DNA of 64,000 nucleotides from a bacterium CG10_46_32. Lineage in GTDB: Bacteria > Patescibacteriota > Patescibacteriia > UBA2169. A model generated the notes under the pieces. That model was not told the DNA's origin, did not search any database, and was given only the letters and a program-made list of their open reading frames with translations. The position numbers were made by a program, and so were the translations under genes. The stretch covers positions 1,170 to 65,169 of the forward strand of contig MOEI01000012.1 in NCBI GenBank assembly GCA_001889965.1, read 5' to 3'. Of this stretch, positions 29,957 through 30,652 are shown one piece after another (positions within the stretch are counted from its first letter, which is position 1; each line of letters opens with the position of its first letter).

Positions 29957-30652
29957 TTAGGAAACTACCGCACGAGCACGCAGGCGCGCGCCGGCACCCT
30001 GCGGGTAGTGCCAGTGCAGGCTCAGCGCGCCGCCGAACCAGTCCACGCTCGGCACATGGCCATCCGAAACGCGGGAACCACTACAGAGTGTGATACTCTT
30101 TACATCCAGATGGCCCCCTTTCTCATCGTTGTACTTCAGCTCGTGGATGACGCGCTCCAGCGCGGTTTCGGTCGCGATCTCGCGCTCTGCTATGTCCTCG
30201 GCAGACAGGTTCTTGAGTTCCTCGTCTGCCTCCACCCGGTCGCGCACGCGGATTGCGTACGAGCCAGTCGCGGAGTCGCGTTCATTCCGGCTGATGGCGC
30301 TGTCCGTGTTATCCCAGTAGCACCTAACCGGAAAACGCTCCTCACACGCATGGAGGAGCCGAGAGAGCTGCAATCCGTGGGCGATTATGAGCACCTTGTT
30401 AAAACCGGGCTTTGGTGCCGGCAAGGCAAGGTGCGAGAAACCAACCCCCATGCCGAGTACGCGCCCGTAGAAGTCCTCCCACTCCGTCCGGACATCGCTC
30501 TGCAGAATCGCCTGCATGCGGTTTTTGTCTATGCGGCCGTTCTGGACCTGGGCCCAGAACTCTTTCATCTGTCCTGGCGTCGGCGGCCCCGATGAGCCTC
30601 CCTCTTGCTGAACACGCACATCTGCGCAGTCAGTAGCATGCAATGCGGTCAT
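29957..30652 (-). CDS. DGR-1 variable target protein (231 aa, no signal peptide, VR at extreme C-terminus)
   Basis: AGGAGG lies 6 nt upstream of the ATG at 30652 (MTALHATD...). The C-terminus GSRVSDGHVPSVDWFGGALSLHWHYPQGAGARLRARAVVS is the diversified copy of TR1. Confidence 0.8.
   Translation of the reverse strand: MTALHATDCADVRVQQEGGSSGPPTPGQMKEFWAQVQNGRIDKNRMQAILQSDVRTEWEDFYGRVLGMGVGFSHLALPAPKPGFNKVLIIAHGLQLSRLLHACEERFPVRCYWDNTDSAISRNERDSATGSYAIRVRDRVEADEELKNLSAEDIAEREIATETALERVIHELKYNDEKGGHLDVKSITLCSGSRVSDGHVPSVDWFGGALSLHWHYPQGAGARLRARAVVS
29961..30078 (-). repeat. DGR-1 variable repeat (VR1)
   Basis: It covers the last 39 codons of the target CDS. Sixteen of the 17 mismatches to TR1 are at TR minus-strand adenines. 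Confidence 0.88.

What the first reader, a model, noticed from the sequence alone, without database searches (positions are those of the whole stretch)
29957..30652. Both DGR targets are small leaderless proteins, so diversification appears to act on intracellular proteins
Target-1 (231 aa, MTALHATDCADVRVQQEGG...) and target-2 (185 aa, MSSYSEGQTHQLMERLESE..., 60143-60700) have no signal peptide, lipobox or TM helix that I can see. Each has a strong SD and its own terminator, and each carries the VR up to the last codons. Their N-terminal domains are unrelated to each other and to anything I recognise. Both genes are visibly GC-richer than their surroundings. Many characterised DGR targets are surface-exposed or secreted ligand-binding proteins. 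Cytoplasmic variable proteins would point to a different role, such as recognising invading phage components or host-derived factors in an episymbiont.
Basis: inference. Interest (0 to 1): 0.5.

Follow-up and report, generated by a model that had tools for sequence, protein, structure and literature searches.

The report
Leaderless lectin-fold DGR targets, shared handle
Two small proteins that this candidate-phyla-radiation bacterium hypermutates with retroelements have no export signal, a trait already published for this group, and I found that such proteins share a small constant N-terminal module that could be used to find out where they work.

Summary
The window, from bacterium CG10_46_32 (Patescibacteria), carries two complete diversity-generating retroelements (DGRs). 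Each has one small target gene, of 231 and 185 aa. Neither target has a hydrophobic leader, lipobox, Tat motif or membrane helix. The same is true of about 260 relatives, with two exceptions.

Roux et al. 2021 already reported that CPR DGR targets lack membrane or signal features and called their location an open question. Cytosolic DGR targets are known from cyanobacteria and Thiohalocapsa.

The "N-domains" are not unrelated unknowns. Most of each protein is the C-type-lectin (CLec) scaffold, clearly so for target 1 and weakly for target 2.

- Target 2 begins with a roughly 50-aa three-helix module. That module heads at least four sequence-distinct DGR target families (786 cluster representatives). 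Target 1 may carry a diverged copy.
- Target genes in both families have much higher third-codon-position GC (GC3) than their own reverse transcriptase (43 of 43 loci).
- Target-2-type mRNAs carry a covarying hairpin around the start codon.

Best reading: these are soluble adaptor proteins, with a hypervariable lectin face and a constant docking handle. They are probably cytoplasmic (about 0.55). Export by an unrecognised route remains a live alternative.

The parts
29957..30652 (-). Target 1 gene (231 aa; BK004_02005). A leaderless DGR variable protein.
   Evidence: ORF and start. 100% match to P0001, 'hypothetical protein BK004_02005 [bacterium CG10_46_32]'. No hydrophobic segment. No Pfam, NCBIfam or PDB sequence hit.
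30455..30586 (-). Target 1 N-terminal helical region (aa 23-66, two helices). Possibly a diverged copy of the N-module.
   Evidence: AF2 model, pLDDT 91.5, helices 26-37 and 43-66, aa 1-17 disordered. Weak similarity to target-2 N-termini in a consistent register.
29960..30415 (-). Target 1 C-type-lectin-fold domain (about aa 80-231).
29961..30078 (-). VR1 (aa 192-231; 15 variable codons, about 10^15 variants).
   Evidence: 86% identical to TR1. 16 substitutions at TR adenines, 1 elsewhere.
30716..30744 (-). Promoter-like site of target 1 (TTGACA-17-TAGCAT, with TG).
30657..30664 (-). Shine-Dalgarno sequence of target 1 (AGGAGGTG).
29895..29921 (-). Intrinsic-terminator-like hairpin after target 1 (11-bp stem plus T run).
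29577..29694 (-). TR1.
29209..29562 (+). avd1 (bAvd), antisense to target, TR and RT.
   Evidence: PF22296 6e-12; NF033474 9e-16.
28184..29218 (-). DGR reverse transcriptase 1. It has no stop codon of its own, and the ORF continues in frame into holA down to 27242.
   Evidence: RVT_1 7.6e-14; holA TIGR01128 1e-59 on aa 350-653 of the same ORF.
60143..60700 (-). Target 2 gene (185 aa; BK004_02160). A leaderless DGR variable protein.
   Evidence: No credible Pfam match (only two sub-threshold hits) and no NCBIfam or PDB sequence hit.
60545..60700 (-). N-module of target 2 (aa 1-52, three short helices). A constant 'handle' shared by several DGR target families.
   Evidence: AF2 helices 6-18, 23-31 and 35-42, pLDDT 87-94. 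A profile of this module finds 786 cluster representatives, nearly always starting at residue 1, fused to different C-terminal domains. No credible Pfam or PDB match.
60146..60544 (-). Target 2 divergent CLec-like domain (aa 53-185).
60148..60270 (-). VR2 (aa 144-185; 19 variable codons, about 10^17 variants).
   Evidence: 19 substitutions, all at TR adenines.
60853..60880 (-). Promoter-like site of target 2, a perfect consensus (TTGACA-16-TATAAT, with TG).
60693..60706 (-). Start-codon hairpin (GAAGAC-AU-GUCUUC), conserved by covariation across the target-2 family.
   Evidence: Alignment A6 of 55 leaders. 86% of cells paired against 71% in shuffles. Covariation score 0.351 against 0.110, reached by 0 of 500 shuffles. 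G.U pairs are present.
60719..60730 (-). Leader palindrome GGCACAUGUGCC. It occupies the position of a covarying leader hairpin seen in other family members.
60038..60076 (-). Terminator-like hairpin after target 2 (18-bp stem).
59672..59794 (-). TR2.
59261..59665 (+). avd2 (bAvd), antisense.
   Evidence: PF22296 1.3e-12; NF033474 3.6e-19.
58243..59268 (-). DGR reverse transcriptase 2 (45% identical to RT1).
   Evidence: RVT_1 2e-22.

Best explanation
Both genes encode minimal, soluble DGR variable proteins from two large families specific to Patescibacteria.

**Shown**
- Each gene is its own transcription unit.
- Each sits upstream of a cassette ordered target, TR, antisense avd, RT. This matches the 'B3' layout that Wu et al. 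2018 describe as typical of CPR.
- The TR/VR differences are the adenine-specific pattern expected of DGR mutagenic retrohoming. They fall on 15 and 19 codons in the C-terminal roughly 40 residues.
- Neither protein, nor almost any relative, has a Sec, Tat or lipoprotein signal or a membrane helix.
- Each protein is a short N-terminal helical region followed by one CLec-type domain that carries the VR.
- The N-terminal three-helix module of target 2 is a constant element. It also heads at least three other sequence-distinct target families confirmed here as DGR targets.

**Inferred**
- With no export signal, the proteins most likely stay in the cytoplasm.
- They work as two-part adaptors. The hypervariable lectin face binds a changing ligand, and the constant N-module docks the complex onto one invariant cellular partner, still unidentified.
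- The ligand could be a phage or host-derived molecule. Nothing here shows which.
For: **DGR status:**

**Leaderless**
- The two proteins themselves.
- Family alignments: 0 of 116 and 2 of 115 with an N-terminal hydrophobic segment.
- Maximally extended ORFs: 0 of 63 and 1 borderline of 80.

**Fold**
- Models with pLDDT 91.5 and 94.5.
- Target 2 is CLec-like but only weakly.

**Cellular, not viral**
- Neighbours are housekeeping genes: polA, holA, rpsT, gmk, a flippase and glycosyltransferases.
- Only 1 and 4 relatives were found in 2.9 million viral contigs, and the two inspected lack the N-module.
- No PHROG hit.

**Families are real, active targets**
- 24 of 27 RT-linked target-1-family loci have a TR, and 444 of 507 mismatches fall at TR adenines.
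- Natural near-identical populations differ only inside the VR, and some VRs are chimeric.
- A copy 18 kb away is diversified in trans.

**N-module as a shared handle**
- 786 cluster representatives, 253 of them at E of 1e-10 or better, nearly always from residue 1.
- It is fused to at least five different C-terminal sequence types. There are also forms with three tandem CLec domains or two tandem N-modules.
- Three of these other families have a TR with adenine-specific mismatches: 11/13, 20/21 and 22/22.
- It is acidic, has no basic helix and is predicted to be folded. Tandem copies argue against a cleaved leader.

**No conserved cysteine pair in either family**.
Against: - Cytoplasmic location rests on the absence of known signals, not on positive evidence. 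SignalP and DeepTMHMM could not be run.
- P0092, a target-1 relative, has a clear Sec signal peptide with its own strong SD. So the scaffold can work outside the cell.
- P0082 has an N-terminal membrane anchor.
- The best structural neighbours of target 1 include extracellular adhesin tips (Bd2740, invasin, intimin, TvpA).
- The N-module is conserved from residue 1, as dedicated export or attachment signals often are.
- The published working hypothesis for CPR DGRs is host-cell attachment (PMC10221324; PMC10907252).
- No partner of the N-module was identified. No gene other than the DGR parts recurs next to these targets.
- The similarity between target 1's N-terminus and the N-module is weak (hhalign probability 9-18%).
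- No VR variants of this genome's own two proteins are in public data.
Confidence: 0.55

Rival explanations
1. The proteins are exported or surface-displayed by a route that current signal rules do not recognise. The conserved N-module would be the export or attachment handle. They would then act as hypervariable adhesins for host-cell contact, which is the standard idea for CPR DGRs.
For: - P0092 carries a genuine Sec signal peptide ahead of the same scaffold.
- Structural neighbours include adhesin and fibre tips.
- The N-module is conserved from the first residue and is shared by many target families, like a trafficking domain.
- The literature hypothesis is attachment to hosts.
Against: - No hydrophobic, Tat, lipobox or pilin-type signal in about 260 relatives.
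- The N-module is predicted to be a folded, acidic three-helix bundle and occurs in tandem. That is unlike a cleavable leader.
- No secretion gene recurs beside these loci.
- P0082's charge distribution places its lectin domain on the cytoplasmic side.
Confidence: 0.33
2. They are receptor-binding proteins of a prophage or other mobile element. Like Mtd, they would need no signal peptide because virions assemble in the cytoplasm.
For: - A few relatives occur on contigs predicted to be viral.
- DGRs are often phage-borne (PMC8144416).
- Both genes differ in composition from their surroundings.
Against: - Flanks are housekeeping genes in the window and in every relative's locus examined.
- Only 1 and 4 hits in 2.9 million viral contigs. 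The two inspected lack the N-terminal region.
- No PHROG match.
- The cognate RT and avd do not share the odd composition.
Confidence: 0.04
3. The lack of a leader is an annotation artefact. The true start would lie upstream and encode a signal peptide.
For: JGI called a 243-aa version of target 1. Many N-module proteins in databases carry spurious N-terminal extensions.
Against: - Reading each ORF back to the preceding stop codon adds no hydrophobic segment in 63 and 80 loci.
- The SD, promoter and covarying start-codon hairpin fix the start of the target-2 family.
- The 243-aa start of target 1 has no SD and lies directly after the leader's 5' hairpin.
Confidence: 0.02

Closest known systems
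CPR/DPANN DGR variable proteins (Paul et al. 2017; 'clade 2' of Roux et al. 2021; 'CPR set', UVR classes and B3 architecture of Wu et al. 2018)
   Same: - Same host group, and the same cassette layout with antisense avd.
- Small targets with no recognisable membrane, signal or other domain, and the VR at the C-terminus.
- Multiple DGRs per genome and remote targets.
   Different: No difference of kind: these two proteins belong to that population.

Added here:
- Fold assignment for the two families.
- The shared N-module.
- The GC3 excess of target genes.
- The start-codon hairpin.

Paul 2017 could not be read, so I cannot say whether any of these is described there.
TvpA (Treponema denticola), Mtd (Bordetella phage BPP-1) and TaqVP: the structurally characterised CLec-fold DGR variable proteins
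   Different: - By my own knowledge, TvpA is a surface lipoprotein and Mtd a phage tail-fibre tip. Both act outside the cell.
- The proteins here are smaller and have no leader and no phage context.
- No sequence-level match to FGE-sulfatase or any Pfam CLec model.
- Target 2 matches only weakly.
Predicted cytosolic DGR targets: cyanobacterial kinase/CLec proteins (Vallota-Eastman 2020) and STAND/MoxR-associated 'antigen sensors' of Thiohalocapsa PB-PSB1 (Dore 2024)
   Same: A CLec VR domain in proteins predicted to be cytoplasmic. The proposed role is sensing variable ligands inside the cell.
   Different: - Those targets are large, multidomain proteins, or sit in conflict-system operons with NTPases and effectors.
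- Here there is only a roughly 50-aa helical module, no effector domain, no defence neighbour and no PADLOC hit.
- Dore et al. themselves place the CPR/DPANN DGRs of their clade 5F outside the conflict-system group.
Bd2740 C-terminal domain (Bdellovibrio bacteriovorus, PDB 8oks)
   Different: - 1-5% sequence identity.
- By my own knowledge, it is part of a long secreted fibre and is not a DGR target.

Membership tests
DGR variable (target) protein | A VR/TR repeat pair whose differences fall at TR adenines | tested here: met
   Target 1: 16 of 17 differences at adenines. Target 2: 19 of 19.
DGR variable (target) protein | A cognate DGR-type reverse transcriptase and accessory protein (Avd) nearby | tested here: met
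   RVT_1 and bAvd/NF033474 within 1.5 kb of each target.
DGR variable (target) protein | VR displayed on a C-type-lectin (or Ig) fold | tested here: met
DGR variable (target) protein | VR displayed on a C-type-lectin (or Ig) fold (target 2) | tested here: inconclusive
DGR variable (target) protein | Observed VR-restricted variation in populations | tested here: inconclusive
   Seen in orthologue clusters of both families. Not seen for this genome's own proteins, which are identical on 5 contigs.
Classically exported proteins (Sec, Tat, lipoprotein, pilin-type) | N-terminal hydrophobic h-region, lipobox cysteine, twin-arginine motif or membrane helix | tested here: not met
   Kyte-Doolittle and motif scans of both proteins and of about 260 relatives. 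SignalP and TMHMM themselves were not available.
FGE-sulfatase / DUF1566-type CLec sequence families (Pfam) | A match to the Pfam models | tested here: not met
   No credible Pfam hit for either protein or for any of 231 relatives.
DGR-diversified conflict-system 'antigen sensors' (Dore 2024) | Target fused to, or in an operon with, a STAND/MoxR/AAA NTPase, vWA, protease or other effector | tested here: not met
   No such domain in the proteins or in neighbours. PADLOC is empty. Relatives' loci are housekeeping.
Phage receptor-binding DGR targets (Mtd-like) | Located in a phage or prophage next to tail genes | tested here: not met
CPR 'B3' DGR cassette (Wu et al. 2018) | A cassette of target, avd, TR and RT only, in the CPR-typical order and orientation. 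Here that is target, TR, antisense avd, RT. The exact B3 diagram was not read. | tested here: met
   Both cassettes in the window. avd is antisense in 11 of 11 target-2-family loci that have an RT. Description in PMC5758913.

The most novel reading that the evidence does not exclude
The roughly 50-aa N-module would be the constant region of an antibody-like system in CPR bacteria. Many DGR-diversified lectin families of unrelated sequence would plug, through this one handle, into a single conserved cellular machine.

In that case the small leaderless targets are interchangeable hypervariable recognition subunits rather than free-standing adhesins. Acting inside the cell, they would be the first standalone 'intrabody-like' DGR products.

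The family-wide GC3 excess and the start-codon hairpin would then be parts of a dedicated expression regime for these subunits.
Probability: 0.3. Interest if true: 0.75.

Novelty: new member of a known kind. Interest (0 to 1): 0.42.

Why it matters
CPR bacteria carry more DGRs than almost any other group. Nobody knows what their diversified proteins bind, or even on which side of the membrane they act. Roux et al. 2021 state this as an open question.

The finding as written restates that question and does not answer it. The shared N-terminal module does make the question experimentally approachable.

- It is a single, conserved, roughly 50-aa bait. Pull-downs, co-folding screens or phylogenetic profiling with it could identify the constant partner.
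- Identifying the partner would give the compartment and pathway for at least four sequence-distinct target families at once.

The GC3 excess and the covarying start-codon hairpin show that these genes are under unusual constraints at the nucleotide level. DGR surveys based on protein domains would miss such constraints.

Tried and rejected
**Sequence searches of both proteins**
- Pfam, NCBIfam, PHROGs and PADLOC gave nothing above threshold.
- Pfam on every member of both family alignments, and on the N-module alone, gave only scattered sub-threshold hits. ScsC_N appeared in 30 of 116 members, on a 13-residue stretch, and I judge it chance.
- PDB sequence and profile searches gave nothing.
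- The N-module's E of 5e-4 to DotG/IcmE is the sum of many partial matches of 'AGFTxxEL' to a 10-residue repeat. I reject it as homology.

**Relation between the two targets**
- hhalign of the two families aligns only the N-terminal helices, at 17.5% probability.
- hhalign of the N-module against the target-1 family gives 9%.
- I therefore call this relation weak, despite the decoy-calibrated enrichment: 38% of real sequences against 0.4% of decoys reach 5 bits, in the same register.

**Ideas considered and dropped or left untested**
- A UBA-like reading, which is only my impression and was not tested.
- A double-glycine leader. There is no GG motif, and tandem folded copies argue against it.
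- Adenine avoidance as the cause of the GC excess. Thymine is depleted at least as much as adenine.

**Unavailable or empty**
- Paul et al. 2017 is not in the library.
- The afdb50 fold library was not available.
- Rfam has no family for the leaders.
- No further targets of either TR lie in the window.

Full report
**Source and anatomy**

Both target proteins match, at 100%, hypothetical proteins BK004_02005 and BK004_02160 of 'bacterium CG10_46_32'. Nearly all their relatives come from Patescibacteria/CPR assemblies.

The window holds two independent DGRs whose reverse transcriptases are 45% identical.

| Element | DGR1 | DGR2 |
|---|---|---|
| Target | 29957-30652(-) | 60143-60700(-) |
| VR | 29961-30078 | 60148-60270 |
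| TR | 29577-29694 | 59672-59794 |
| avd (+ strand) | 29209-29562 | 59261-59665 |
| RT (-) | from 29218 | 58243-59268 |

In VR1, 16 of 17 differences from the TR fall at TR adenines. In VR2, 19 of 19 do. They affect 15 and 19 codons, giving about 10^15 and 10^17 possible proteins. The layout with avd antisense matches what Wu et al. 2018 describe as the 'B3' architecture, found in 90% of CPR DGRs (PMC5758913).

**Checking the observation**

Neither protein has a hydrophobic stretch. The highest Kyte-Doolittle 19-residue means are 0.94 and 0.56. Neither has a lipobox or an RR motif, and both N-termini are net acidic.

Target 1 has a strong SD, a promoter-like site and a clean terminator. Target 2 has a perfect-consensus promoter, a moderate SD and a long terminator-like hairpin.

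Both genes have GC of about 0.61, against 0.458 for the window. Their GC3 is 0.72 and 0.82, against 0.43-0.59 for neighbouring genes and for their own RT and avd.

**What the proteins are**

No sequence library recognises them. Alignment-based AlphaFold models are confident, with pLDDT 91.5 and 94.5.

**Family-scale test of 'leaderless'**

- In alignments of 115 target-1 and 116 target-2 relatives, 2 and 0 respectively have an N-terminal hydrophobic segment.
- In 71 loci from species-representative genomes (target-1 family) and 82 loci, mostly from metagenomes (target-2 family), I read each ORF back to the preceding stop codon. None of 63 complete ORFs, and one borderline internal case of 80, reaches the membrane-helix threshold.
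- The two exceptions are informative.
  - P0092 has a textbook Sec signal peptide behind a strong SD.
  - P0082 has an N-terminal anchor followed by RIRRRKK. By the positive-inside rule, that would leave its lectin domain in the cytoplasm.

**The families are real, active targets**

- 24 of 27 RT-linked target-1-family loci have a TR, and 444 of 507 mismatches fall at TR adenines.
- Roughly half of the copies with enough flanking sequence have no RT nearby.
- At least one such 'orphan' (L025) matches a TR 18 kb away, with 28 of 33 mismatches at adenines. It is therefore a remote target.
- In 90%-identity clusters from natural populations, members are identical except at VR positions, and some VRs are chimeric. 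This holds for the target-2 family and for three target-1 clusters.
- For this genome's own two proteins, no variants are in public data.

**Context**

In the window and in relatives, the cassettes sit among housekeeping genes. Apart from DGR parts, no neighbour recurs. Only 1 and 4 relatives occur in 2.9 million viral contigs, and the two inspected lack the N-terminal region. A prophage origin is therefore unlikely.

**A shared N-terminal module**

The first 52 residues of target 2 have the family consensus MSxxYSxGQxxQLxDALExAGxTPxDVTKLxQxxxLxxIxxVLxGxAEIV. I used them as a profile against 1.84 billion representative proteins.

- The profile finds 786 clusters, 253 of them at E of 1e-10 or better. 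The match almost always starts at residue 1.
- Apparent N-terminal extensions are mis-called starts.
- The module is fused to at least five different C-terminal sequence types. Some proteins have three tandem target-2-type domains, and some have two tandem modules.
- Three of the other types were checked. Each has a downstream TR with adenine-specific mismatches (11/13, 20/21, 22/22) and an avd or RT where the contig allows.
- The module has no credible Pfam or PDB relative.
- Target 1's helices align to it in a constant register, but only weakly.

A constant, folded, acidic module placed in front of interchangeable hypervariable domains is most simply a docking handle.

**Interpretation**

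With no export signal, the default location is the cytoplasm. I put that at about 0.55. The main rival, at about 0.33, is export or display through an unrecognised route that uses the N-module. P0092, the adhesin-like structural neighbours and the attachment hypothesis in the literature all support that rival.

The specific idea of sensing phage components has a published precedent in Thiohalocapsa, but none of its defining features is present here. There is no NTPase or effector fusion, no such operon and no PADLOC hit.

**Comparison with the literature**

- Roux et al. 2021 already report that CPR clade-2 targets lack membrane or other domains, 'as previously reported' by Paul et al. 2015 and 2017. 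They leave open whether these are genuinely non-membrane-bound.
- Most cyanobacterial variable proteins are predicted to be cytosolic.
- Dore et al. 2024 describe cytoplasmic targets as sensors.

The finding as written is therefore known, and its hypothesis is an acknowledged open question. I could not find the N-module, the GC3 excess or the start-codon hairpin in the searchable literature. Paul 2017 could not be read.

**Side observations**

- Target genes, with the VR excluded, have higher GC3 than their own RT in 24 of 24 and 19 of 19 loci. The medians are 0.645 against 0.348, and 0.589 against 0.398.
- They are GC-richer than their flanks in 54 of 59 and 35 of 36 loci, whether or not an RT is adjacent.
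- Adenine is not specifically depleted. I have no explanation for the GC excess.
- In 55 distinct target-2-family leaders, the six bases before AUG pair with the G of AUG plus codons 2-3. The covariation is strong and G.U pairs are present.
- A second hairpin lies just upstream of the SD. In 38 of 55 leaders it folds with z below -2.

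Noticed in passing
window 60693-60706(-); alignment A6 of leaders from L001, L006 and L083-L158: A conserved hairpin encloses the start codon of target-2-family mRNAs. The 6 nt before AUG pair with the G of AUG plus codons 2-3 (GAAGAC/GUCUUC, GUAGAC/GUCUAC, GUGGAC/GUCCAC, GACGAC/GUCGUC and others). 86% of cells are paired, against 71% in shuffles. The covariation score is 0.351 against 0.110, reached by 0 of 500 shuffles. 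G.U pairs point to RNA. There is no Rfam family.
   Followed up: partly
window 60719-60730(-), and the 50 nt upstream of the SD in the same 55 leaders: A second leader hairpin lies about 10 nt upstream of the SD. Its outer stem appears to covary (GGAC/GUCC, GCAAC/GUUGC, GUAAC/GUUAC) and its inner stem is GUUC/GAAC. In the window's subgroup it is reduced to the palindrome GGCACAUGUGCC. 38 of 55 leaders fold with z below -2. Pair counts were not made for this hairpin.
   Followed up: partly
window 29957-30652 and 60143-60700; loci L012-L162: Target genes are compositional outliers across both families. Outside the VR, their GC3 exceeds that of their own RT in 24/24 and 19/19 loci (medians 0.645 against 0.348, and 0.589 against 0.398). 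GC exceeds the flanks in 54/59 and 35/36 loci, including copies with no RT nearby. It is not adenine-specific. Unexplained.
   Followed up: partly
window 27242-29218(-): RT1 has no stop codon. Its reading frame continues into a complete DNA polymerase III delta subunit gene (holA, TIGR01128 1e-59), giving a 658-aa RT-HolA ORF. An SD-like GGAAGG lies 5 nt before the holA ATG, so holA can probably also start on its own. Relatives' RTs are stand-alone, at about 330-345 aa.
   Followed up: partly
L025 and L029 (same contig, JAQUKX010000003.1): A target-1-family gene with no RT within 8 kb is a remote target of a DGR 18 kb away: 28 of 33 mismatches to that TR fall at adenines. About half of the family members in both families lack an adjacent RT.
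   Followed up: partly
P0409, P0313, P0297, P0298: Unusual architectures built on the N-module: one module followed by three tandem target-2-type lectin domains (481 aa); one with an extra C-terminal domain after the VR (341 aa); and proteins with two tandem N-modules.
   Followed up: no
window 30625-30709(-): The target-1 leader folds unusually well (z -3.9). It has a hairpin at the predicted 5' end (CUAAACGG-AAUGC-CCGUUUAG, 30689-30709) and a stem that contains the 3' part of the SD and the AUG. Conservation across the family was not tested.
   Followed up: no
window 59638-59659(-): A terminator-like hairpin (9-bp stem plus T run) lies directly after TR2 and overlaps the 3' end of the antisense avd2 gene. 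It could end both the TR transcript and, in the other direction, avd.
   Followed up: no
window 57577-58262(-): A PIN-domain toxin gene (57577-58008) overlaps by 4 nt a small upstream ORF (58005-58262), which may encode its antitoxin. The pair lies immediately downstream of RT2, and the upstream ORF overlaps the RT2 3' end by 20 nt.
   Followed up: no
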